DNA of 19,943 nucleotides from an uncultured Candidatus Poseidoniales archaeon. Its GTDB lineage: Archaea; Thermoplasmatota; Poseidoniia; Poseidoniales; Thalassarchaeaceae. Below, one piece after another: positions 3,614 to 14,035 of the stretch. Numbering within the stretch: the stretch's first letter is position 1; every line of letters begins with the position of its first letter. Where the stretch lies: contig CAZXZO010000002.1 of the NCBI GenBank assembly GCA_964645485.1, positions 2,915-22,857 on the forward strand, written 5' to 3'. A model generated the notes under the pieces. It was not told where the DNA came from, did not search any database, and was given only the letters and a program-made list of their open reading frames with translations. The position numbers and the translations under genes were made by a program.

Positions 3614-4789
3614 TCATTGGCCTACTAAAATTCTAATATCCTCAAGGAATTCATCGGTACTCCAATCAGAACCAACCCAAGCAACTCGCTTTTGCCCATT
3701 CTTGTCTACGATATATGTGACAGTGCTATGTCCTACATCATACACTTCTTCTGCATCCTCAGAATCTTCACCACTCTCATGACCATCATGTGTGCCTTGC
3801 CCGTCTCCAGATACACAAGTTAGGTGGTCAGCACCATCCCATTGGTAGCCATCATCACACATACAATGAGCACCATCTCCCTCACCCATTACCCATCCAT
3901 GTCCACCGCATATTGCTGATGCTGGTGTTGGAAGATTTGAGAGGTTTGCATTACTCGCTACCCAAGCAATGTGTGGGTGGTGTGCGGAAATATCTACTCC
4001 ATCAATTCCTACTTGACTTTCTTCCCATGAAGAGTTTGAACCGTTCCAAAGGTAAAGACTCCAATACCATGAGTAGTCAGAAGGAGATTCAATTCCTGAA
4101 ATATTTTCCATGTAATGCCCATATTGTGAATCAGGTGCTACGAAACTGATGTTGTTGATGTTGAAAGCGCTTGTAGTTAGATTGTAACCAGTTGCATTCT
4201 CTGGTAGATGTGTTTGGTTTACTTCATATTCAGCGGTGCTATTATCTGGCATCATGGTAATTACAGAATGCATGATTTCCTCTTCATCCATACCATCGTC
4301 ACTTCCATCCATCTCCCCGTTGATATGCATATCAATCATTGAAGAGTTGACAGCAACCCCCCAACTATTCCACATACTCTTCAGTAATTCAAAATCTGTG
4401 GAAGTAAGGTGGGGCCAATCGTAGCCATATTCCTCGACATATTGTGCTAGAACTTCAGGTGTATCTCTAATTGGGTCGATAGTGATAGACAGATAAACCA
4501 CATCTTCACCATATGAATCTCCTAATTCTCCTGCCATATAATTCATGTTTGCTTCAATAATTGGGCAAACATCAGTGCAGGATGTGTAAGTGAAAGCTAC
4601 AACAACGACCTTCCCATCATAATCGGAAAGAGACACATCATTTCCATCTTGGTCTGTTAAGGTGAAATCCGGAGCATCAACGGGTGGATTGTATTGGTGA
4701 CCATTGAATGTAACAGCCTCTTCATTTCCACCTAAGCATCCAGAGAGCAACAGCGCCCCTGCTAACAAAACAACGACAACTCTACGCAT
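3614..4789 (-). CDS. sco: SCO1/SenC family copper chaperone lipoprotein with large internal insertion
   Basis: Lipobox LLLSGC; APDFTLTDQDG, FTYTSCTDVCP (CxxxC, C71/C75), SITIDPIRDTPEVL and YDVGHSTVTYIVDKNG (His354) are SCO hallmarks; located next to the oxidase operon. Confidence 0.92.
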   Translation of the reverse strand: MRRVVVVLLAGALLLSGCLGGNEEAVTFNGHQYNPPVDAPDFTLTDQDGNDVSLSDYDGKVVVVAFTYTSCTDVCPIIEANMNYMAGELGDSYGEDVVYLSITIDPIRDTPEVLAQYVEEYGYDWPHLTSTDFELLKSMWNSWGVAVNSSMIDMHINGEMDGSDDGMDEEEIMHSVITMMPDNSTAEYEVNQTHLPENATGYNLTTSAFNINNISFVAPDSQYGHYMENISGIESPSDYSWYWSLYLWNGSNSSWEESQVGIDGVDISAHHPHIAWVASNANLSNLPTPASAICGGHGWVMGEGDGAHCMCDDGYQWDGADHLTCVSGDGQGTHDGHESGEDSEDAEEVYDVGHSTVTYIVDKNGQKRVAWVGSDWSTDEFLEDIRILVGQ

Positions 4790-5114: not shown

Positions 5115-5444
5115 CTACCAGAATCTACACCATGCTGGTAAAGAATCAGGTGAAGCAGGGCTAGTTAAAGCGATGACAGCGATCATAATACCAATGAAAA
5201 AGACAGGGAACAAAGCAGTCATTGTCAAAATGTTGCTATCTTCTTCCATCCTAAGGTGCATGAATATGAAAGCGATTCCAAGAAATTTAACCACTCCAAT
5301 TGATACGAGGACAAAAATAATCATGCCCTCAGAAATCTGTTCTTGTACTGCTGCAGCAACCGCTCCAACTTCAATTAAAGTTAGAATCATCAGCATAGCG
5401 AAGTTCATGTTGTAAGCGTCTTTTCCAAAAATTGTATGACTCAT
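5115..5444 (-). CDS. coxD: Cytochrome c oxidase subunit IV (prokaryotic COX4/CtaF-like)
   Basis: 109 aa, three hydrophobic helices, VKFLGIAFIFMHL motif typical of prokaryotic subunit IV; last gene of the operon; SD AAGGAGG upstream. Confidence 0.8.
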   Translation of the reverse strand: MSHTIFGKDAYNMNFAMLMILTLIEVGAVAAAVQEQISEGMIIFVLVSIGVVKFLGIAFIFMHLRMEEDSNILTMTALFPVFFIGIMIAVIALTSPASPDSLPAWCRFW

Positions 5445-5456
5445 ATTCTCTCCTCC

Positions 5457-6545
5457 TTAATACAGGTAAAATGCTGGGAAAACCAACACCCAAACCAAAT
5501 CTACAAAGTGCCAATAAAGACCGAAGTACTCAATCGATACTGCGTTAGTTGGTGAGTACCCTCCCTTGTGAGCCTTGAAGGTCATATAACACAGGCCAAC
5601 AATGCCTCCGAATACGTGAGCACCGTGAGTTCCAGTAGCGACATAGAAGGTACTTGCAGAGAGACGTAAATTGGCTGTAAGGTGTTCTTCACCGTGGCCT
5701 GAACCAGCAAATGGGTAGGCCGTATTGTGAATTGTGTATCCATCTTCCAACAGACTTGGTGCATGGAATGGTCCGATATTGAATCCAATGAACCACTCAA
5801 CCATCTTCAAGATTAGGAACAGAGTTGCAAGTGCAAGAGTTGCTCCTAGATAGTTGCGTATTTTCCGGCTTCGCTCTTCGTCATCCAAATCGGTTCGCTT
5901 TGCAGTCTGTAGAGCCATTACCACTGTGAAGGAGGAAATAATTAGAGCGAATGTGTTGATTGCACCTGGAACCAGAGTGTCTGGAAGTCCAAATCCACCA
6001 AATGATAGGGTCCACGATTCTGAGTGGCTTCCAGCGATAAAGTAAGATGCTGGAATCCAGCAAGCATCACCCGGTGTGAATGGTACACCGTTAGAGTATG
6101 TGGAATGGTTGTCAAGAATTGTTTGGCATGATTCTGTACTAAGTCTATAACGAATATAGGTTGAGAATAAGGATGAGAAGACCATCATCTCAGACATTAG
6201 GAATACCCAAATACCAACCTTACGGATGTCGATATTCTTGAATGGAACTCCTGCGGATTTTGGTTCGTAGGTACCATCAAAGGAAAGATCTTGGCGCCAC
6301 CAGATTAGGAATCCTGCCATGATTATTGCAAATCCAACAAGAGTTACCGGTAGGCCACCGGGATTGTAGATGGTATTGTCCATTGTTTCATTCATTGCGA
6401 ATGTGCCCGCAAATCCGAATAGGAATACTCCTACTCCAAGTGATACAATGATTGGTGCCCAACTGTTGTGTGGCGCTCCGTGTGCCCAGTCATGTGGACC
6501 CCATGCGCTTCCATGATGTTCGTCGTGCTCTCCGTCGTAACTCAT
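5457..6545 (-). CDS. coxC: Heme-copper oxidase subunit III (7-TM form)
   Basis: GIWVFLMSEMMVFSSLF, INTFALIISSFT, FYVATGTHGAHV and YWHFVDLVW motifs; His-rich N-terminus with SWAP; ATGA overlap with the subunit I stop; SD GAGGTG. Confidence 0.95.
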   Translation of the reverse strand: MSYDGEHDEHHGSAWGPHDWAHGAPHNSWAPIIVSLGVGVFLFGFAGTFAMNETMDNTIYNPGGLPVTLVGFAIIMAGFLIWWRQDLSFDGTYEPKSAGVPFKNIDIRKVGIWVFLMSEMMVFSSLFSTYIRYRLSTESCQTILDNHSTYSNGVPFTPGDACWIPASYFIAGSHSESWTLSFGGFGLPDTLVPGAINTFALIISSFTVVMALQTAKRTDLDDEERSRKIRNYLGATLALATLFLILKMVEWFIGFNIGPFHAPSLLEDGYTIHNTAYPFAGSGHGEEHLTANLRLSASTFYVATGTHGAHVFGGIVGLCYMTFKAHKGGYSPTNAVSIEYFGLYWHFVDLVWVLVFPAFYLY

Positions 6546-8860
6546 TTTGCCACCTCCTCGTGGTTATCAGGAACCATCATTCGCATCAACCAATTTGGTT
6601 CCTTCTCTTCGTGAACGTTAGCATCTATTAGAGTTGGAATCTCGTCGAATGATGGAGTTGGTGGAGGTGATGTTGTAAGCCACTCGAATGACCAACCACC
6701 CCATGGGTCAGCAGGTGCTTTTTGACCCTTGATTAGAGAAACTACCATGTTGATTACCATAAACAAAGATGAAAGTCCAAAGATAAAAGCATTGATTGTA
6801 ATGAACATATTCCAACCTGCTGCTTCAGGAGGTAGAGTTCCAATCACATCACTGTATTCATTTGCCTGCATGAAGTATGTGTGGTGTCTTCGAGTCATTC
6901 CCCAAAGTCCTAACTTGTGCATTGGCCAGAAAATTCCATTGTATGAAATGAAGGCGATTAAGAAATGAATAACGCCCAGACGTTCATTCATCATGCGTCC
7001 AGTCATTTTCGGATACCAGTAGTATATCGCTGAAAACAGACCGAATACAACTCCCCCAACCAGCACATAGTGGAAGTGCGCGACTACGAAGTAAGTCTCA
7101 TGCAAATGTGTGTTCATTGAAATTGCCGGGAAGAACATTCCTGAAATACCACCTAATGTGAAGGTAATTAAGAACCCAAGAGCCCATAGTGTGTGAGTTC
7201 GATAAACTAGAGAACCCCCGTGCATGGTTTTGAGCCAATTGAAAATTTTGATTCCCGTAGGAACAGCCACAGCCATTGTTGTCAGCATCATGACGAAACG
7301 TAGAGCAGGAGACATTCCACTGGTCAACATGTGATGCCCATAAACAATAAACGACACAAATCCAATTCCAGCAAGCGCAAAAACCATTGAGCGATAACCG
7401 AAGATTGCTCTTCTTGCACTAGTCGCCAATACTTCAGAAACGATACCGAAAGCAGGTAAAATAACCACATAAACTTCGGGATGTCCAAAGTACCAGAACA
7501 AGTGACTCCAAAGAACAGGGTCACCACCTGCTGAGACATTGAAGAAGGAAGTTGCAACGGTTCTATCTAAGAAGGCTTCAATCAATCCGATTCCAAATGC
7601 TGGGATTGAAATAAATAGACACATGATAGAAACTAGAATTGACCATGTGAATAGAGGCATTTGCATCCAACCCATCCCAGGCGCTCGCATACCTGCGATT
7701 GTTGTAATGAAATTAATTCCTGCAAGCGTTGAAGATGCCACCAGCATTATTTGGCCAGCAATCCAGAACGTCGCCCCAGTGTGGGTACCAACCCAGCCTG
7801 TAATTGGTTGATATCCAGTCCAACCAACATCAGCAGCGTTTCCAGAGAAAATCCCACTCATTATGAGCACTGAAGCAACAGGGTTCAGCCAGAACGCCAT
7901 TGCATTGATTCTTGGGAAAGCCAAATCCTTTGCACCAATTTGTAGCGGGACAATCCAATTAGCAAATCCATTAATCATTGGCATTGCTGCTAAGAAAATC
8001 ATAATTGTTCCATGTAAGGTGAAGAATTGATTGTATTCATCCTTGGTTAAGAAATCGTTACCAGGGATTGCTAATTGTGTGCGCATTAACAGAGCAAGAA
8101 CTCCACCGACAACGAAGTAAAACAGTCCTGCTACAAAGTAAAGAGTTCCAATCTTTTTGTGATCGGTGCTAGTCAACCATTCTGAAATCCAAGGTGCAAA
8201 AGCTGACCAACTGAATCCCTCAGGATTCATTCGGTAGAATACGTAAACTATTGCGACAAACAGCAGAAGTGTTACCAAAATAATTGCAGAGAATAGAACA
8301 ACGAGCCCATCAGCATCCGCCAAAGGCTCTTCTCCTCCACCCATTGAACTCATAGTGAATGTTGATTGAGCCCAGTAGTCATCAGCACTAGCACTTCCAT
8401 CCCCATTTACAGAATTTACAGTCAGGGTAAAACTAGATGTTCCACTCGCAGGTGAAGTCCATTCAACTGTCCAAGAAGTTTGGTCATTTCCTGAATCTGT
8501 GTGGGTTAACTGGCCTGCCATTAATTGAGAAGAGTCATCAGTTGATGCCAGAGTTCCTTTTGTTGCAACGAGATTGAATCCACCCATGTTCTCTTGGGTT
8601 CCGGCAGCCACATCTCCAGGTCCACCAGTAAAACCAACTAAGAATGAATAAGTTTCAGCGGCATTGTATGTTTCTGGTAATGCGCTACCATTCGCTAATG
8701 TCATAAAAACTGACACTTCACTGTTAGGGCTTCCAGTGTGACATGAACAACCTGTTTCTACATTTGAGATACCTGTTGGCCTTGCTTGCATGCTAGGTGC
8801 CAACAACATTGCAACTAGTATCATTGAGAAGATTGCGATAAATTTCTTATTTACTTGCAC
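6542..8860 (-). CDS. coxA: Cytochrome c oxidase subunit I, A1-type, with fused N-terminal Reeler/choice-of-anchor-V-like domain
   Basis: Numbering from the track's 8887 start: WLTSTDHKKIG, TLHGTIM (H292), GAKDLAFPRINA (D321/N328, D-channel), GHPEVY (H469/E471/Y473), GHHM (H518/H519), PTGIK (K547), AHFHY (H604/H606), RR pair. The start is most likely GTG at 8860: it lies 5 nt after SD GAGGTGA and avoids the overlap with coxB. Confidence 0.96.
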   Translation of the reverse strand: MQVNKKFIAIFSMILVAMLLAPSMQARPTGISNVETGCSCHTGSPNSEVSVFMTLANGSALPETYNAAETYSFLVGFTGGPGDVAAGTQENMGGFNLVATKGTLASTDDSSQLMAGQLTHTDSGNDQTSWTVEWTSPASGTSSFTLTVNSVNGDGSASADDYWAQSTFTMSSMGGGEEPLADADGLVVLFSAIILVTLLLFVAIVYVFYRMNPEGFSWSAFAPWISEWLTSTDHKKIGTLYFVAGLFYFVVGGVLALLMRTQLAIPGNDFLTKDEYNQFFTLHGTIMIFLAAMPMINGFANWIVPLQIGAKDLAFPRINAMAFWLNPVASVLIMSGIFSGNAADVGWTGYQPITGWVGTHTGATFWIAGQIMLVASSTLAGINFITTIAGMRAPGMGWMQMPLFTWSILVSIMCLFISIPAFGIGLIEAFLDRTVATSFFNVSAGGDPVLWSHLFWYFGHPEVYVVILPAFGIVSEVLATSARRAIFGYRSMVFALAGIGFVSFIVYGHHMLTSGMSPALRFVMMLTTMAVAVPTGIKIFNWLKTMHGGSLVYRTHTLWALGFLITFTLGGISGMFFPAISMNTHLHETYFVVAHFHYVLVGGVVFGLFSAIYYWYPKMTGRMMNERLGVIHFLIAFISYNGIFWPMHKLGLWGMTRRHHTYFMQANEYSDVIGTLPPEAAGWNMFITINAFIFGLSSLFMVINMVVSLIKGQKAPADPWGGWSFEWLTTSPPPTPSFDEIPTLIDANVHEEKEPNWLMRMMVPDNHEEVAK

Positions 8861-8870
8861 GATAATCACC

Positions 8871-9515
8871 TCACTCGTGGACCTCAAGAATCGCAGTCAT
8901 GTATGCATGGTCATCGCCACAAAACTCTGCACAATCAATGAAGAATTTACCAGTTAAATCAATTGGAAGCCAAATAGCAGTCTGCAGTCCAGGCACAGCA
9001 TCCTCCTTTGCACCCCATTGAACGAAGTAAGGTGAATGTGTTACATCCCCCGAAGTTAAATCAATTCGATACATGGTATTATTTTTCAGAATTAGCGTGG
9101 TTAAGCCAGTATCTGCATCAACTCCCACATCACAAAGGTCTGTACTTAATTCTCGACAGTCAAATTCCCAGTACCATTGGTAGCCAGTAACTCCAACTTC
9201 AAAGTAATCTACACCCTCAACTCCAATTGCATCGGGGTCTTCCCACACATCAGATGTTGGGCCTATGATTAGTACGGTGAGATAAATAATGAGGATAGAA
9301 GGAGCAATAATCCAAGCGGCTTCCAACTTTCCATTGTGATAATGTAGTGGAAATTCTCCAACTTTGAGATTATCAATATTTGGCACTTCTCCGTCCTTAG
9401 AGCGGTAGAAGAACGAATGGTGTAATTGCCATCCAAAAACGATGACACCTACAAAGATAGACCAGTTCCAAAATATCTCAAACAACTCATTGTATGAAGC
9501 GCCACCTACAGCCAT
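8871..9515 (-). CDS. coxB: Cytochrome c oxidase subunit II (CuA-containing)
   Basis: Two TM helices with LEAAWIIAP; aromatic electron-entry motif GYQWYWEF; complete CuA ligand set H160...CAEFCGDDHAYM (C195, E197, C199, H203, M206); no C-terminal cytochrome c fusion. Confidence 0.95.
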   Translation of the reverse strand: MAVGGASYNELFEIFWNWSIFVGVIVFGWQLHHSFFYRSKDGEVPNIDNLKVGEFPLHYHNGKLEAAWIIAPSILIIYLTVLIIGPTSDVWEDPDAIGVEGVDYFEVGVTGYQWYWEFDCRELSTDLCDVGVDADTGLTTLILKNNTMYRIDLTSGDVTHSPYFVQWGAKEDAVPGLQTAIWLPIDLTGKFFIDCAEFCGDDHAYMTAILEVHE

Positions 9516-9739: not shown

Positions 9740-10132
9740 ATGGCTCTGTCTATGAGTGTGCGGGCGTTGGTGGTTGAAGACAACCAAGTAAACGTACGTT
9801 TACTACTCGCTTTGCTAAAGGGAAAAGGCATCACTGACATTGAAATTGCAGAGGATGCCAACCAAGCCTTCACCGCTCTCCAGACCGGCGCTTTTGATCT
9901 GATATTCATGGATATTCAATTACCTTGGACAGATGGTTTACAATTGACAAAAGCAATTCGTGACCACCCCCTTGTAAGGAAAAGTAGGATAATTGCTGTG
10001 ACAGCATTCTCTACCCCAGAAGACCGTCGTAAGGCAGCAGCGGTAGGATGTGATGCATTCGTTGCAAAACCAGTACGGCGAGAAGAGTTGTATCGAGTAA
10101 TTGATGAGCAATTAGCCGAGCGTGGCAAATGA
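9740..10132 (+). CDS. Stand-alone response regulator receiver (CheY/DivK-like)
   Basis: LVVEDN acidic pocket, phosphoacceptor FMDIQLP, DG, VTA (Thr), AKPV (Lys-Pro); no output domain. An alternative start exists at ATG 9752. Confidence 0.92.
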   Translation: MALSMSVRALVVEDNQVNVRLLLALLKGKGITDIEIAEDANQAFTALQTGAFDLIFMDIQLPWTDGLQLTKAIRDHPLVRKSRIIAVTAFSTPEDRRKAAAVGCDAFVAKPVRREELYRVIDEQLAERGK

Positions 10133-10211
10133 TTGATTCCGCTCAAATGCTGATTATTGTACTGAATTAACCGCTTTGTTTTCATGTTAAGCCAAATTCA
10201 AGATACATAGA

Positions 10212-10550
10212 GTGATAATGATGGCTGACATTAATGATGTAGTTACCCTATCATCTTCTAGAGAAGTTTCAATTGCAATCGAACTCCAACCTTCATCTTC
10301 AAGTTCAGAAATTTTGGGAATCAATCAATGGCGTCAGCGCTTGCAAGTAAAGGTCATTTCACCAGCAATAAAGGGCGCGGCCAATCAAGAACTCATCGAG
10401 ATAATGGCAACTTTTTTTGGCTTATCTAACTCATCAGTGAAACTAGATTCAGGGGCCAAGGATAGACGTAAACGAATTTTACTTTCAGATATTTCATTGG
10501 AAAAAGTGCTCGAGAAACTTGAACATTTTTTGGATGAAGGGGGGCAATGA
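10212..10550 (+). CDS. DUF167 / UPF0235 (YggU-like) protein
   Basis: LQVKVISPAIKGAANQELIEIMATFFGLSNSSVKLDSGAKDRRKRILL matches the DUF167 pattern (V-x-x-P-x-x-G-x-AN...SG-x-x-x-R-x-K). The exact start among GTG/ATG/ATG is uncertain. Confidence 0.85.
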   Translation: MIMMADINDVVTLSSSREVSIAIELQPSSSSSEILGINQWRQRLQVKVISPAIKGAANQELIEIMATFFGLSNSSVKLDSGAKDRRKRILLSDISLEKVLEKLEHFLDEGGQ

Positions 10551-11054
10551 ATGTCTCGAAAAAACAGCACTGGGAACCCCACTCAAGACGTACGGTTTGA
10601 AAGTGCTGGCCGTGCATTGGCGTTAGCCCGAGAGAGGAACCGAGATGTTGAGAAGGGTGGTTCTTCATGCCCTGTATTAATTGAGGGAATAAACGATGTC
10701 AAGGCATTACGAAAATTAGGCTTCACTGGAGTCATTGAACAACTGAATAGAGGTTGGGACCGAAGTCGTTTAGTAGCATATTTATTTGAAAAATATGGTT
10801 GTAATAATCCAAATGATGGCGGTCCAGCCATCATCTTATTAATGGATTGGGATCGTACAGGTGGTCGTATCCAAAATGACCTCAGTATTCGTCTTAAGGC
10901 AATGGATGTCTCCTTGGATGAAAAGACACGAATTGAATTAGTAAGGGCAATGAAACCAGAAGGAAAAACAATTGAATCATTGGCTCCATTTGCTAGCCAA
11001 TTACGTGAAAAAATGAGTTATCATGACCCAGATGGTTCAGATGGTGAGGAGTAA
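10551..11054 (+). CDS. Small TOPRIM-domain protein (RNase M5/primase-like)
   Basis: VLIEGINDVKAL (EGxxD) and LLMDWDRTG (DxDxxG) TOPRIM motifs; ATG directly follows the DUF167 stop. Confidence 0.88.
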   Translation: MSRKNSTGNPTQDVRFESAGRALALARERNRDVEKGGSSCPVLIEGINDVKALRKLGFTGVIEQLNRGWDRSRLVAYLFEKYGCNNPNDGGPAIILLMDWDRTGGRIQNDLSIRLKAMDVSLDEKTRIELVRAMKPEGKTIESLAPFASQLREKMSYHDPDGSDGEE

Positions 11055-14035
11055 TCCTCTAGTTGAATGATAATCCGAGCACTGAGTTCTGCCTGAACAC
11101 CCTCGCGAATTTTTTCAAGGTGTACAATTCGCTCATCAAGTTCTCTGGTTAGCCTCGCAATCAATCCGTTTTTCATTCGTCTCCAACGGTCATCAACAGG
11201 CGTCCCACCTTGTTGTTGGCGATAGACTGCAGCACGAATCTGCTCACGCTCTCGTTCGATTCTTTGCATCCACGAGCGTTGCACATTGTGCCTCAATTCG
11301 TCCAAAAGTGGTGCTAGCCTTGCCCTTTCATCTTCTAGAAGCCAACCATGGATTCTATCTAGAGCACTTTCAATAACGACTTCTTCGGTCTCATCAAACA
11401 TCACCCTCTCAAGTTCCTCAATTGATTTCCATGGATAGAGAGGTTGATTGGGTATAGGCATACCATGTTTGTCTAGAACTAGCCATCGTCGAACTGCATG
11501 ATTCGATAATCCAGCAACAATCCAATCAAGGCAGATTAGCATACATGCTTCTTTATCCCAATATTTTGGCCTCATCGCTTTGAGTTGAGTAACAGGAGCA
11601 ATTCCAGCGACCTTCCATCCGCTGATGGTAGCATCGGGATTTGATTCACCACCAATTGGTTCACGCAACCATTGGACAATTGGGTGCCATGGAGCAAGTT
11701 GGACAAGATCAGTTCTGTCTTTCGCCTCTTCTCTATCAATCGCTACTCCAATTATGTGCGGTCCAGCCGAACCTGCTAACATTTCAATATGCTTTTGCCA
11801 ACCACTAGTCAGCCAATCAGAACGATATTTTTCAGCGCATCTTTGGGCTAATTCATCAACGCTATATTGGCTTAATTTCAAGTGCCAATATCCATCAACT
11901 TTGTATACGCTTGAATGTCGGTCACGTTGTTTCAATCTTGCTTTCACCCAGGCAATTAATTGACCCGGCTCAATACCAAGTTCCATGTTGATAGCGTCTT
12001 CCCTCAACTTTCGAATTCCCGGGTCATTACCTAACCATTCACGTTCTTCAGTGGCTCTCTCTGTTAACCAGCGCTCGCGTTTTTCGAGTAAAGTGTCAAG
12101 CCCGCCATCAACATTGGCAACTTCATCAGCATTTACCAGACTATATCCACTATGGCCTAAACGTTTGGCACGTGGATTGTTGAGTTCGGTTTGAGCAACA
12201 AGCCGCATGGCTTTACCAAGTAGCGGGTCAAGCATTCCAATTGAATCTTCAAACAATCTTATTCGGTGGAATAAACGACCTAGGATTGCAGCATCAATTG
12301 TGCCTTCAACTGCTAAGTTGAGAATAGTAATCACATCTGCTTCTTGACCAAATCTATCAAGGCGGCCAATCCGCTGTTCTATTCTCATAGGATTCCATGG
12401 TAAATCGTAGTTGACTAGTCTATGACAATGCTGTTGGTCTAAACCTTCACTTCCAACTTCACTTGAGAGAAGAACATCAATTTCTCCATTAGCAAATTGG
12501 GTACGCAACTCCTCTCTTTCCAACATTGGAGTTTGTCCACTCAGAACTTTACAATTTACCCCCTCTTCGGTTAATCGTCGAGATAAATAAGCAAGTGTTC
12601 CACGGAAATGACTGAACAACAGAATTCCTCCCACACGGTCTTCTTCAAGGGAGTTCAACATCCACATTTTCATGGCTTCAAACTTTGAGTCTTCATCTCC
12701 CAGTTCTTCCGCTGCGTCAATCAATTCATCAAGGTCACCAAAGCGACTCAGGAGTCGGTGTTCGGCTTCTCGGATTGTGCCATCATCTGCCTCATCCTGA
12801 CCTTCGGTTCCAAAATCAAATGCAGCTCTTGCTGTTTGTCGTAATTGAGTTTGAACATGAGTTGCAAATGCTTGTAGGCAACTGCTAGCCATTCTCTCAG
12901 GCACTACTAGTGCCCAATCAAATCTATCCGAATCAGGATTTCTCAATTGCATCAATCTCCAAGTCCAACGTCTAGCAGCCTCATACAGCCTCCACTCAGC
13001 AGCACTCAATTCAACATCCAATGTGATTGCTTCCCGGGTCGCAAGGTGGAGGTCTAAATCCCGACGTCTTGTTCTAACAATTAATTCATTGAGTGGTCTT
13101 AGTTGACGAATTAAATCAGCAACTTCTAAACGATTTCTTTGTAAATTTTCATCTCTCCAACCAAGGGGGTCTGAGCAGATTTCAATGGCTTGAGTCAAAC
13201 GAGGGTCGTTGGTAAATCCAGGCGTCATGTTTAGAATTTGTAGTGCACCCAAAGCCCCTTCAAGGTCAGGTGTGGTTTTTGCTGTGGCATCTAATGCCGT
13301 GTTCAGCATCTGCATAGGTCTCATGGTTGCTTGGAAGGAATTGAAATCTGGCCATCTGTCAGGTGCTAGAAGTGAAAGTTGCACCCACAATTCTTCATTT
13401 GAGAGATTGACAGGAGTGGCTGTTAGAAACAAGGTTTGCCGGCTATGTAATGAAAGAATCTGGATAGCATCGTGTAATCGACTACGAGGATTTCTGCAAT
13501 GGTGTGACTCATCAACAATTGTCAGAAGCAAATCAGGCACCCCCTCTTCCATCAATTCTCTCAACAATTTTGATTGTCTGAAAATACCATGACTAGTGAC
13601 GACTACAAGTGATTCACCATCGCGAATCCTGTCCAGAGCATTGTGCAACTTCTTACCGGTATTCGCCTCGAATCCATCAAGGTCACAACGGTGGAACATT
13701 TCTTGCAACCATTTCAATCTCAATCCACCAGGACAAATGATGAGAACGCCGCCGGATTCACCCATCGCGTGAAGGCGGCGTAATACATGCAATGCCGACA
13801 CTGTCTTGCCTAATCCAACTTCGTCAGCAATTAGTAATCCAGCCCAATTACTAGAAGCCAGCCTTGCTGCTGGAAGGTGCTGATGTGGCTGGTCAACCCA
13901 GCGTCCAAAATTTAGTAATGGACACAAATCAGATGGTGGAAATCTAATATCCAAATCGGCGCGGATTAGATTCCATTCAGGGGCACCTAATTTTGCGCCG
14001 CTGGCGCCTTGATTCCTACTACCTAAATCGCTCAA
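11021..14035 (-). CDS. SNF2-family (RapA/HepA-like clade) SF2 helicase/translocase
   Basis: PHQ (Q motif), IADEVGLGKT (I), IVDESHHCRN (II), LTATPVNL (III), LLFSHF (IV), SEVGSEGLD (V), NPMRIEQRIGRLDRFGQ (VI); ~350 aa C-terminal extension with a predicted coiled coil; TTG start; the 3' end overlaps the TOPRIM gene by 34 bp. Confidence 0.93.
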   Translation of the reverse strand: MSDLGSRNQGASGAKLGAPEWNLIRADLDIRFPPSDLCPLLNFGRWVDQPHQHLPAARLASSNWAGLLIADEVGLGKTVSALHVLRRLHAMGESGGVLIICPGGLRLKWLQEMFHRCDLDGFEANTGKKLHNALDRIRDGESLVVVTSHGIFRQSKLLRELMEEGVPDLLLTIVDESHHCRNPRSRLHDAIQILSLHSRQTLFLTATPVNLSNEELWVQLSLLAPDRWPDFNSFQATMRPMQMLNTALDATAKTTPDLEGALGALQILNMTPGFTNDPRLTQAIEICSDPLGWRDENLQRNRLEVADLIRQLRPLNELIVRTRRRDLDLHLATREAITLDVELSAAEWRLYEAARRWTWRLMQLRNPDSDRFDWALVVPERMASSCLQAFATHVQTQLRQTARAAFDFGTEGQDEADDGTIREAEHRLLSRFGDLDELIDAAEELGDEDSKFEAMKMWMLNSLEEDRVGGILLFSHFRGTLAYLSRRLTEEGVNCKVLSGQTPMLEREELRTQFANGEIDVLLSSEVGSEGLDQQHCHRLVNYDLPWNPMRIEQRIGRLDRFGQEADVITILNLAVEGTIDAAILGRLFHRIRLFEDSIGMLDPLLGKAMRLVAQTELNNPRAKRLGHSGYSLVNADEVANVDGGLDTLLEKRERWLTERATEEREWLGNDPGIRKLREDAINMELGIEPGQLIAWVKARLKQRDRHSSVYKVDGYWHLKLSQYSVDELAQRCAEKYRSDWLTSGWQKHIEMLAGSAGPHIIGVAIDREEAKDRTDLVQLAPWHPIVQWLREPIGGESNPDATISGWKVAGIAPVTQLKAMRPKYWDKEACMLICLDWIVAGLSNHAVRRWLVLDKHGMPIPNQPLYPWKSIEELERVMFDETEEVVIESALDRIHGWLLEDERARLAPLLDELRHNVQRSWMQRIEREREQIRAAVYRQQQGGTPVDDRWRRMKNGLIARLTRELDERIVHLEKIREGVQAELSARIIIQLEDYSSPSEPSGS

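What the first reader, a model, noticed from the sequence alone, without database searches (positions are those of the whole stretch)
8348..8860. Cytochrome c oxidase subunit I fused to an exported Reeler/choice-of-anchor-V-like domain with a CxCH motif: a possible built-in electron donor
Seen: before the normal subunit I start (WLTSTDHKKIG, ~aa 237 of the track protein) there is a cleavable-looking signal peptide (...APSMQA|RPTG), a ~145 aa beta-rich domain containing GCSCH (8738-8749), GGFNL, LTHT, WTVEWTSP and NSVNGDG, a Gly/Glu linker, and one extra TM helix. Known: these motifs resemble Reeler/choice-of-anchor V domains, whose bacterial members typically carry CxxCH. Subunit I normally starts in the cytoplasm, and caa3-type oxidases fuse their cytochrome c to subunit II, not I. 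Inference: signal peptide plus extra helix put the domain on the outer face beside the CuA domain, where a soluble donor would dock. Subunit II here keeps its electron-entry Trp (YQWYW) and has no cytochrome c fusion. The domain could be a tethered heme- or copper-binding electron relay (CxCH plus distal His129 or a Met), an oxidase architecture I do not know as characterised.
Basis: partly seen in the sequence, partly recalled or inferred. Interest (0 to 1): 0.88.

Follow-up and report, generated by a model that had tools for sequence, protein, structure and literature searches.

The report
Oxidase subunit I with built-in CxCH domain
In Marine Group II archaea, very abundant in the surface ocean, the core subunit of the oxygen-reducing respiratory enzyme always carries an extra outward-facing domain with a Cys-x-Cys-His site that is probably a new kind of covalent-haem electron carrier, filling the gap left by the cytochromes c and c1 these cells appear to lack.

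Summary
The coxI ORF (6542-8887, minus strand) encodes a Sec-type signal peptide, a 140-aa choice-of-anchor V domain (NF041895, 79.5 bits against a cut-off of 42), a Gly/Glu linker, one extra TM helix and then a normal subunit I.

The fusion is not an artefact. 46 of 49 Poseidoniales CoxI ORFs are 768-809 aa, and 185 GTDB species genomes carry it.

GCxCH and a distal His (H129) are invariant in the fused forms. Family-wide, the Cys-His pair is kept in every full-length relative checked but one. The spacing to the first Cys varies (CxCH, CxxCH, Cx4CH, Cx9CH, or a single Cys). That pattern is typical of c-type haem sites.

The genome has a full archaeal Ccm haem-attachment system. It has no class I cytochrome c domain match and no exported CxxCH protein. 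Its only plausible Ccm substrates are three proteins with this domain. One paralogue heads the Rieske/cytochrome b operon, where cytochrome c1 or f would sit. The fold resembles Reeler and cytochrome f.

Best reading: a tethered electron-entry cytochrome feeding CuA. The cofactor is inferred, not shown.

This scan found the same feature before on other genomes. I found no paper describing it.

The parts
8871..9515 (-). coxII: CuA-type subunit II with no cytochrome c fusion
   Evidence: PF00116 E 3.3e-13 and TIGR02866. It carries the CuA motif CAEFCGDDHAYM and YQWYW. A CoxII with the CuA motif lies directly upstream of the fused coxI in 77 of 80 related loci.
6542..8887 (-). coxI fusion ORF: 781 aa from TTG 8887; the probable true start is GTG 8860, giving 772 aa
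   Evidence: ORFs of 768-809 aa hold CoxI in 46 of 49 Poseidoniales genomes with a match.
8783..8860 (-). Sec-type signal peptide (MQVNKKFIAIFSMILVAMLLAPSMQA), predicted cleavage before RPTG
   Evidence: Hydrophobicity scan and alignment of 32 fused homologues. There is no conserved twin-arginine motif.
8360..8782 (-). Exported choice-of-anchor V / Reeler-like beta-sandwich domain (aa 36-176)
8738..8749 (-). C47-S-C49-H50, the proposed cofactor (haem c) attachment site
   Evidence: Invariant in 36 fused homologues and in a 44-sequence family alignment. The spacing to the first Cys varies across the family while the Cys-His pair is kept.
8501..8503 (-). H129 (LTHT), candidate distal ligand
   Evidence: Invariant in the fused forms. 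At least 90% conserved family-wide, and Tyr in the CxxCH clade f26.
8318..8359 (-). Gly/Glu/Asp-rich flexible linker (aa 177-190)
   Evidence: Sequence; variable in the alignment; lower pLDDT in the model.
8222..8317 (-). Extra transmembrane helix (aa 191-222) that returns the chain to the cytoplasm
   Evidence: Hydrophobicity peak of 3.2. Predicted helix 168-194 of model 1. The VL...YVFYR motif is conserved.
6545..8155 (-). Canonical haem-copper oxidase subunit I core (aa 245-781)
   Evidence: PF00115 E 7e-142; TIGR02891 633 bits.
5457..6545 (-). coxIII
   Evidence: PF00510 E 1.8e-13.
5115..5444 (-). coxIV (prokaryotic subunit IV)
   Evidence: PF03626 E 1e-10.
3614..4789 (-). Sco1/SenC copper chaperone lipoprotein with a large internal insertion
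   Evidence: PF02630 E 2.8e-27. CTDVCP motif and lipobox-like LSGC.

Best explanation
The N-terminal extension of CoxI is an exported redox domain held on the outer face of the oxidase by one extra transmembrane helix and a flexible linker. It is most likely a new type of c-type cytochrome.

Proposed build (inferred). The domain has a Reeler-like beta-sandwich. Haem would be bound covalently at Cys-x-Cys-His by the archaeal Ccm system. His129, or the new N-terminus left after signal-peptide cleavage, would be the second axial ligand.

Proposed role (inferred). It acts as the built-in electron-entry station of the oxidase, as the cytochrome c domain does in caa3 oxidases. It would take electrons from the Rieske/cytochrome b complex and pass them to CuA of subunit II. 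That complex has its own paralogous domain protein in the place of cytochrome c1 or f. The hand-over could be direct or go through an anchored carrier.

Shown here: domain identity, topology logic, conservation, gene contexts, and the presence of Ccm without a class I cytochrome c domain match.

Inferred: haem binding, the ligands, and contact with CuA.
For: 1. Family membership and topology.

2. The fusion is universal in the order. 46 of 49 Poseidoniales CoxI ORFs are 768-809 aa, in all three families. 185 GTDB species genomes encode it. It also occurs in the wider class and phylum, in G140 and G157.

3. Conserved residues. GCxCH, H129, FTGGP, GGFxL, W..W and NSVxG are invariant at 41-89% identity.

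4. A haem-c-like signature. Across the family the Cys-His pair is fixed while the spacing to the first Cys varies:
- CxCH in 131 of 149 representatives
- CxxCH in 4, including a whole clade (f26) and a Poseidoniales protein whose motif region weakly hits the haem site of PF13442
- Cx4CH in 7
- Cx9CH in 2
- one single-Cys form, TCH
. One listed representative (P0081) shows no such site and may be mis-started.

5. Ccm without other substrates. The genome encodes CcmA/B, CcmC, a CcmE of the archaeal CxxxY type (CPSKY) and CcmF. It has no PF00034 or PF13442 match and no exported CxxCH ORF. The three choice-of-anchor V proteins are the only exported Cys..Cys-His proteins.

6. The same pattern holds order-wide. 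Class I cytochrome c domains were over cut-off in 0 of 51 genomes (PF13442) and 1 of 51 (PF00034). CcmE was found in 40 of 45. The domain was found in 121 of 121.

7. Phylum-wide co-occurrence. 58 of 69 genomes with the domain have CcmE, against 10 of 132 without it. Five of the 11 exceptions were checked, and all five have CcmF/CcmC-type proteins.

8. Respiratory gene contexts.
- A paralogue heads the operon V-domain - DUF7318 - Rieske - cytochrome b - subunit IV/Hdr-like. This synteny is seen in four families.
- In G133 a member follows NrfC-NrfD and sits beside ccmB, ccmC, ccmF and an MtrC-like multihaem cytochrome. Another member there follows a multicopper oxidase.

10. Literature. MGII archaea have Rieske and cytochrome b genes but no cytochrome c1 (PMC6336850).
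Against: - No direct evidence of any cofactor.
- CX1CH is not a known natural haem-c motif. This rests on my own knowledge; the paper searches found nothing.
- Two Cys plus two His could also bind Cu, Zn or Fe.
- The same domain heads large surface proteins with TSP3, RCC1, PKD and ephrin-receptor-like repeats. Some free-standing members lie in non-respiratory neighbourhoods, for example after the ribosomal S24e/S27ae genes. A generic surface-module role therefore cannot be excluded.
- The co-occurrence with Ccm is confounded by phylogeny and by an aerobic lifestyle.
- The genome is 82% complete, so a canonical cytochrome c could have been missed.
Confidence: 0.55

Rival explanations
1. The domain binds copper, not haem. 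It could be a copper chaperone for CuB or CuA insertion, analogous to Cox11 (an Ig-like fold with a CFCF motif), Sco or PCuAC. Or it could be a copper redox centre built from two Cys and two His.
Against: Paralogues sit in copper-free contexts: the Rieske/cytochrome b operon and NrfCD. The spacing to the first Cys varies from 1 to 9 residues, and one member has a single Cys, yet the Cys-His pair stays adjacent. That is unlike rigid copper sites, where neighbouring residues rarely bind the same ion (general knowledge). Pfam gave no hit to CtaG_Cox11, PCuAC or cupredoxin families at E up to 1. A copper role would also leave the Ccm system without a substrate.
Confidence: 0.15
2. The domain has no redox role. 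It is a structural, docking or assembly module. It might tie the oxidase to the Rieske/cytochrome b complex through like-with-like contacts, or to the cell envelope. The Cys and His residues would hold a structural disulfide or a zinc ion.
For: Reeler domains of animals are binding modules. The same domain heads many large adhesin-like surface proteins. The 'choice-of-anchor' naming reflects a generic surface domain. Several free-standing members lie in non-respiratory neighbourhoods.
Against: The adjacent Cys-His pair with variable spacing to the first Cys is not what a structural disulfide needs. F-spondin Reeler lacks this N-terminal arm and the His. The domain recurs beside quinol-oxidising modules and ccm genes. 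In the same genome a true redox head, a cupredoxin, uses the same layout of head, long TSP3-like tether and PGF-CTERM anchor. That layout therefore does not argue against redox function.
Confidence: 0.17
3. The domain binds haem for uptake or handling rather than electron transfer, like NEAT domains of Gram-positive bacteria. The copy on CoxI would then help supply haem to the oxidase.
For: It is a beta-sandwich surface domain at the head of long surface proteins. Its motif is haem-like.
Against: Haem a is inserted from the membrane or cytoplasmic side (general knowledge). The paralogue occupies the position of cytochrome c1/f in the Rieske/cytochrome b operon and follows NrfCD. NEAT domains bind haem through Tyr without Cys-His (general knowledge).
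Confidence: 0.05
4. The fusion is an assembly chimera, a frameshift or a miscalled start.
For: None beyond the uncertain start codon (TTG 8887 or GTG 8860).
Against: The reading frame is uninterrupted. The same architecture appears in 35 protein clusters, 185 species genomes and 46 of 49 high-quality genomes from independent assemblies.
Confidence: 0.01

Closest known systems
Cytochrome c domain of caa3-type oxidases (Thermus, Bacillus, Rhodothermus)
   Same: An electron-donor domain built into an A-type haem-copper oxidase. It sits on the outer face beside CuA, so no soluble donor has to dock.
   Different: In caa3 oxidases a class I all-helical cytochrome c with CxxCH is fused to the C-terminus of subunit II. 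Here a Reeler-like beta-sandwich with CxCH is fused to the N-terminus of subunit I through an extra TM helix. Subunit II has no fusion.
Cytochrome f of b6f complexes
   Different: There is no sequence-level similarity. The motif is CxCH, not CxxCH. A conserved distal His is present. There is no small domain. In this window the domain is fused to CoxI, not to the bc-type complex.
NCBIfam NF041895 choice-of-anchor V domain / Pfam PF02014 Reeler (F-spondin reeler, PDB 3coo and 2zot)
   Different: NF041895 has no assigned function. Animal Reeler domains lack the N-terminal Cys-x-Cys-His arm and the conserved His, and they are binding modules.
CbsA (cytochrome b558/566) of the Sulfolobus SoxLN-CbsAB complex
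   Same: It is an archaeal, outward-facing, beta-rich, membrane-anchored haem protein encoded with Rieske and cytochrome b genes and proposed to replace cytochrome c1 (general knowledge; the operon is named in PMC4122944).
   Different: CbsA binds haem b non-covalently. It belongs to another fold family and is not fused to an oxidase.
Cox11/CtaG copper chaperone
   Same: An Ig-like beta-sandwich with a Cys-x-Cys motif, functionally tied to subunit I.
   Different: Pfam gave no CtaG_Cox11 match. Cox11 has no adjacent His, and it is not found in Rieske/cytochrome b or NrfCD operons.

Membership tests
NCBIfam NF041895 (choice-of-anchor V domain) | HMM score above the curated cut-off of 42 bits over nearly the full model | tested here: met
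   79.5 bits, E 2.5e-22, model positions 3-148 of 150.
Pfam PF02014 Reeler | HMM score at or above the gathering threshold of 21 bits | tested here: not met
Haem-copper oxidase subunit I (A-type, CtaD/CoxA) | Full-length COX1 domain | tested here: met
   PF00115 E 7e-142. TIGR02891 scored 633 bits, just under its equivalog cut-off of 670.75.
c-type cytochrome | Canonical CxxCH haem-binding motif | tested here: not met
   This protein has C-S-C-H. Relatives at the same aligned position have CxxCH, Cx4CH, Cx9CH or a single-Cys CH.
c-type cytochrome | Export by Sec, and a cytochrome c maturation system in the genome | tested here: met
   Sec-type signal peptide. CcmA/B, CcmC, CcmE (CPSKY) and CcmF are present.
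c-type cytochrome | Covalently bound haem | not testable with these tools
   This needs haem staining, a pyridine haemochrome spectrum and mass spectrometry.
caa3-type oxidase | Class I cytochrome c domain fused to the C-terminus of subunit II | tested here: not met
   CoxII is 214 aa and ends just after the CuA motif. There is no PF00034 or PF13442 match anywhere in the genome.
Cytochrome f (Apocytochr_F) | Sequence match to the cytochrome f families | tested here: not met
Cox11/CtaG, PCuAC, cupredoxin | Family HMM match and the characteristic ligand pattern | tested here: not met
   No such Pfam or NCBIfam hit on aa 1-240 at E up to 1.

The most novel reading that the evidence does not exclude
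The choice-of-anchor V domain is a new class of c-type cytochrome. It would have a Reeler fold and haem attached at Cys-x-Cys-His (CX1CH) by the archaeal CcmE(Cys)-type system.

It would replace both cytochrome c1/f (as the free paralogue in the Rieske/cytochrome b operon) and soluble cytochrome c (as the domain fused to CoxI) in Marine Group II and III archaea and other Thermoplasmatota. That would explain why these genomes keep Ccm genes without any recognisable cytochrome c.

Non-standard haem-c proteins of this kind could also bear on the 'haloarchaea paradox' of biochemically seen but genomically unidentified haem-c subunits (PMC4429474). I found no evidence for the domain in Haloferax.
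Probability: 0.45. Interest if true: 0.85.

Novelty: new variant of a known kind. Interest (0 to 1): 0.78.

Why it matters
Marine Group II archaea are among the most abundant heterotrophs of the surface ocean and have never been cultured. Published genome surveys note that they have Rieske and cytochrome b genes but no cytochrome c1. Those surveys leave the link to the terminal oxidase open (PMC6336850).

This domain gives a concrete candidate for both missing links. It also explains an otherwise substrate-less cytochrome c maturation system.

If haem binding is confirmed, three things follow:
- a new fold and a new attachment motif (CX1CH) are added to the c-type cytochromes
- motif-based censuses of cytochromes in archaea would need revising, because they search for CxxCH
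- a new oxidase architecture is defined, with the donor fused to subunit I

The claim can be tested directly with one recombinant domain.

Tried and rejected
Docking to CuA is therefore untested.
- The search for related loci with the diverse family alignment A2 failed because no stretch was conserved enough. The fusion-specific alignment A1 was used instead.
- Neighbourhoods of free-standing metagenomic members were short or non-respiratory and gave no functional lead. These were P0038, P0079, P0082, P0042 and P0071. Their neighbours included ribosomal S24e/S27ae genes, glycosyltransferases and LSM.
- The listing of cluster members and a second homologue search gave no organism names for the high-GC members with PGF-CTERM tails. 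A link to haloarchaea could not be made. The Haloferax volcanii control genome has no match to NF041895.
- Literature searches found nothing on this domain. Terms tried: 'choice-of-anchor V'; CXCH with haem or c-type cytochrome; Reeler domain with haem.
- A Rieske-like [2Fe-2S] reading of CxCH was considered, because Rieske box II is also CxCH (PMC4122944). I rejected it. The signal peptide is Sec-type without a conserved twin-arginine, and only two Cys are present.
It remains untested.
Full report
**What is in the window.** The minus strand carries a terminal-oxidase operon:
- coxII at 8871-9515
- a 781-aa coxI ORF at 6542-8887
- coxIII at 5457-6545
- coxIV at 5115-5444
- a Sco1/SenC lipoprotein at 3614-4789

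These were found.

The coxI ORF begins with a hydrophobic signal peptide ending APSMQA|RPTG. Next comes a 140-aa domain that matches NCBIfam NF041895, choice-of-anchor V (E 2.5e-22, 79.5 bits, cut-off 42, nearly the whole model). The same stretch scores below threshold on Pfam Reeler (16.8 bits against 21).

After the domain come a Gly/Glu/Asp linker and one strongly hydrophobic helix at aa 191-222. Then follow a conserved cytoplasmic connector and a complete COX1 domain from aa 245 (PF00115, E 7e-142).

Relatives start at the equivalent of the GTG at 8860. The real protein is therefore probably 772 aa.

CoxII has the CuA ligands (CAEFCGDDHAYM) and YQWYW, and no cytochrome c extension. It is a CuA-type, cytochrome-c-oxidase-like enzyme that needs a one-electron donor on the outer face.

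**The fusion is real and lineage-wide.** A word-indexed search with the N-terminal 240 aa returned 35 protein clusters at 41-89% identity. All contained COX1, and they were named Thalassarchaeaceae, Euryarchaeota or Thermoplasmatota.

In 51 Poseidoniales genomes at least 90% complete, 49 have CoxI. In 46 of those the ORF holding the best match is 768-809 aa. This holds in all three families of the order, and no ordinary-length subunit I was seen.

A pattern scan of GTDB species genomes confirmed 185 loci with the fusion. A CuA-type coxII lies directly upstream in 77 of the 80 loci kept. The fusion also occurs in a sister family of the class (G140) and in another Thermoplasmatota family (G157). 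An assembly artefact is excluded.

**Conservation.** In 32 non-identical fused N-termini the invariant positions are:
- the Gly four residues after the predicted cleavage site
- G-C-x-C-H
- FTGGP and GGF(N/H)L
- H129
- GN, W...W..P, NSV.G and D.W

The extra helix and connector are also conserved.

In a 44-sequence alignment of diverse family members, only nine columns are invariant. They are that Gly, both Cys, the His, two Gly, two Trp and one Asp. H129 is at least 90% conserved.

An exhaustive HMMER search of 1.8 billion representatives found 459 clusters at E up to 1e-3. Most are proteins of 200-230 aa with a C-terminal anchor, and many tails look like PGF-CTERM.

**The motif behaves like a haem-c site.** In the 149 nearest representatives the motif breaks down as follows:

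| Form | Count |
|---|---|
| CxCH | 131 |
| CxxCH | 4 |
| Cx4CH | 7 |
| None by my regular expression | 7 |

Of the last seven:
- two are Cx9CH
- one has a single Cys (ATCH)
- three are fragments
- one (P0081) shows no Cys-His site and may be mis-started

One Thermoplasmatota family (f26) carries canonical CxxCH throughout: CTSCH, CSSCH, CISCH and CVSCH. One Poseidoniales surface protein has CGSCH, and its motif region is weakly picked up by the haem-site part of the cytochrome c model PF13442.

The pattern is therefore a fixed Cys-His pair with a first Cys at variable distance or missing. That is the pattern known for c-type haem attachment (CXnCH, and XXXCH in euglenozoans; general knowledge). 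It is not the pattern of copper or zinc sites, where adjacent residues rarely bind the same ion.

**A maturation system without other substrates.** The window's genome is 1.94 Mb and 82% complete. It encodes:
- a CcmA/B fusion
- CcmC, with a WGTPWD tryptophan-rich motif
- CcmE of the archaeal Cys type (CPSKY)
- an 848-aa CcmF, with WGGYWAWDPVE

The genome has no match to PF00034 or PF13442. Two scans of all ORFs looked for exported proteins with Cys-x(1-4)-Cys-His/Lys. Apart from short spurious frames and thioredoxin/Sco-like or Fe-S proteins, they found only the three choice-of-anchor V proteins.

Across the order:
- the domain is present in 121 of 121 genomes, at 2-10 copies each
- CcmE is present in 40 of 45; that bulk mode missed the CcmE of this very genome, so this is a lower bound
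- class I cytochrome c domains were over cut-off in 0 of 51 genomes (PF13442) and 1 of 51 (PF00034); the one hit is a DUF1111-like dihaem protein

Across 201 Thermoplasmatota genomes:

| | CcmE found | CcmE not found |
|---|---|---|
| Domain over cut-off (69) | 58 | 11 |
| Domain not over cut-off (132) | 10 | 122 |

Five of the 11 exceptions were checked, and all five have CcmF/CcmC-type proteins. These genomes are related to one another, and both traits track aerobic respiration. The association is supportive, not decisive.

**Gene contexts point to electron transfer.** The genome has two more family members.

The first is 275 aa, with a signal peptide, GCTCH and a C-terminal TM anchor. It is the first gene of an operon that continues as follows:
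- a DUF7318 protein
- a Tat-signal Rieske protein
- cytochrome b (N-terminal half)
- a 966-aa subunit IV fused to an Hdr-like Fe-S/CCG module
- a ferredoxin

This order is kept in both large families of Poseidoniales. It is also kept in a class-level relative (G247, motif CYCH), and a similar arrangement is seen in G157. From the coordinates listed, a V-domain match lies about 1.2 kb upstream of the Rieske gene on the same strand in at least 27 genomes.

This is the slot of cytochrome c1 or f, which published MGII surveys report as missing (PMC6336850).

The second member is 349 aa with C-terminal TM helices. It lies between pntB and tatC.

In another Thermoplasmatota genome (G133) a member is translationally coupled to NrfC-NrfD. 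It is followed by ccmB and ccmC, with ccmF and an MtrC-like multihaem cytochrome next to them. Another member there follows a multicopper oxidase.

All four partners (oxidase, Rieske/cytochrome b, NrfCD and multicopper oxidase) exchange electrons with carriers on the outer face.

**Fold.** The domain alone, modelled with 44 sequences, gives pLDDT 89.5 and pTM 0.85. The N-terminal arm with CxCH is the least confident part.

- Foldseek ranks the F-spondin Reeler domain first (E about 2e-5).
- A family profile finds the same protein in the PDB at E 0.02. That alignment starts after the CxCH arm, and F-spondin has no His at the H129 position.

Cytochrome f is a beta-sandwich. Its haem is attached 21-25 residues from the mature N-terminus, its N-terminal amino group is the sixth ligand, and it has a C-terminal TM anchor (general knowledge). 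The free paralogue has the same build.

**What argues for caution.** No cofactor has been observed. I know of no natural CX1CH haem site, and the paper searches found none.

The domain also heads large surface proteins with TSP3, RCC1, PKD and ephrin-receptor-like repeats. Some free-standing members sit in non-respiratory neighbourhoods. Some members may therefore do something else.

Against reading that as evidence for a non-redox role: the same genome anchors a true cupredoxin through TSP3-like repeats and a PGF-CTERM tail. 'Redox head on a long tether' is thus a local design. That cupredoxin is also a candidate shuttle between the two complexes.

**Mechanism proposed.** Steps are marked as shown or inferred.
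1. Sec export and signal-peptide cleavage. Inferred from sequence.
2. Haem attachment at C47/C49 with H50 as proximal ligand, by the Ccm system. Inferred.
3. H129 or the new N-terminus as distal ligand. Inferred.
4. The extra helix anchors the domain next to CoxI TM1, and the linker of about 20 residues lets it reach the CuA domain. The topology follows from the sequence. The contact is inferred.
5. Electrons arrive from the paralogous subunit of the Rieske/cytochrome b complex, either directly in a supercomplex or through an anchored carrier. They then pass to CuA, haem a and the haem a3-CuB site. Inferred by analogy with caa3 oxidases and bcc-aa3 supercomplexes.

**Comparison and novelty.** By function the nearest known thing is the cytochrome c domain of caa3 oxidases. 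Here, however, the fold, the motif, the subunit and the terminus of fusion all differ. By build the nearest is cytochrome f. By sequence it is a member of NF041895, a family with a name but no function.

I found no paper on it. [quoted passage not shown] I could not connect this domain to haloarchaea.

The same feature has been reported several times before by this scan on other Poseidoniales genomes, with the same reading. Those notes are not independent evidence. I re-derived the main points here. I also added the variable-spacing argument, the Ccm-without-substrate survey, the NrfCD/ccm neighbourhood and the cytochrome f fold match.

**Verdict.** I rate it a new variant of a known kind of system (a tethered electron donor on a haem-copper oxidase). 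There is a substantial chance that it represents a new class of c-type cytochrome.

Noticed in passing
G000:C4:8568-14593 (locus L004 2569-8594, minus strand): Complex III-like operon: V-domain protein, DUF7318, Tat-signal Rieske, cytochrome b N-half, then a 966-aa protein. That last protein joins subunit IV to a 4Fe-4S/CCG (heterodisulfide-reductase-like) module. A small ferredoxin follows. The order is syntenic across Poseidoniales.
   Followed up: partly
G000:C22:13045-14724: A 559-aa surface protein: signal peptide, plastocyanin-like cupredoxin head (PF00127), long acidic TSP3-like repeats and a PGF-CTERM anchor. It is a candidate tethered electron shuttle.
   Followed up: partly
G000:C5:9321-10370 (L001 1420-2469): Third choice-of-anchor V paralogue (349 aa, GCNCH) with C-terminal transmembrane helices, between pntB and tatC. 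Its role is unknown.
   Followed up: partly
window 3614-4789 (-): The Sco1/SenC lipoprotein (CTDVCP motif) carries an insertion of about 200 aa, rich in Asn, Ser, Trp, Cys and His, inside the thioredoxin fold. There are weak EGF-like hits.
   Followed up: no
L037/L038 (G133:C3:1-30000): In another Thermoplasmatota family the gene order is ArsR, NrfC, NrfD, V-domain (CTCH), two unknown exported proteins, ccmB, ccmC, ccmF, then a 17-motif MtrC-like multihaem cytochrome. Separately, a multicopper oxidase is followed by a V-domain protein.
   Followed up: partly
L015, L018, L019, L020 (G027, G053, G003): Choice-of-anchor V domains head surface proteins of 680-1700 aa with TSP3, RCC1, PKD and ephrin-receptor-like repeats. 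One has Cx5CH (GCGGTACH).
   Followed up: partly
L012 478-1143 and L129 1631-2281: In two unrelated high-GC metagenomic contigs a free PGF-CTERM-type V-domain gene directly follows the ribosomal S24e-S27ae genes.
   Followed up: no
L039 1243-2829 (G276:C62): This is the only canonical cytochrome c hit in 51 Poseidoniales genomes. It is a 528-aa dihaem DUF1111-like protein (CSGCH, CANCH) and may be contamination.
   Followed up: no
G000:C5:22754-23197: CcmE of this genome (archaeal CPSKY type) was found by the 'own' search but missed by the bulk phylum search. Bulk absences of CcmE are therefore partly false negatives.
   Followed up: yes
window 9740-14035: Next to the oxidase operon lie a lone response-regulator receiver (130 aa), a DUF167/YggU protein, a 167-aa unknown and a 1004-aa SNF2-family helicase. 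All look ordinary.
   Followed up: no
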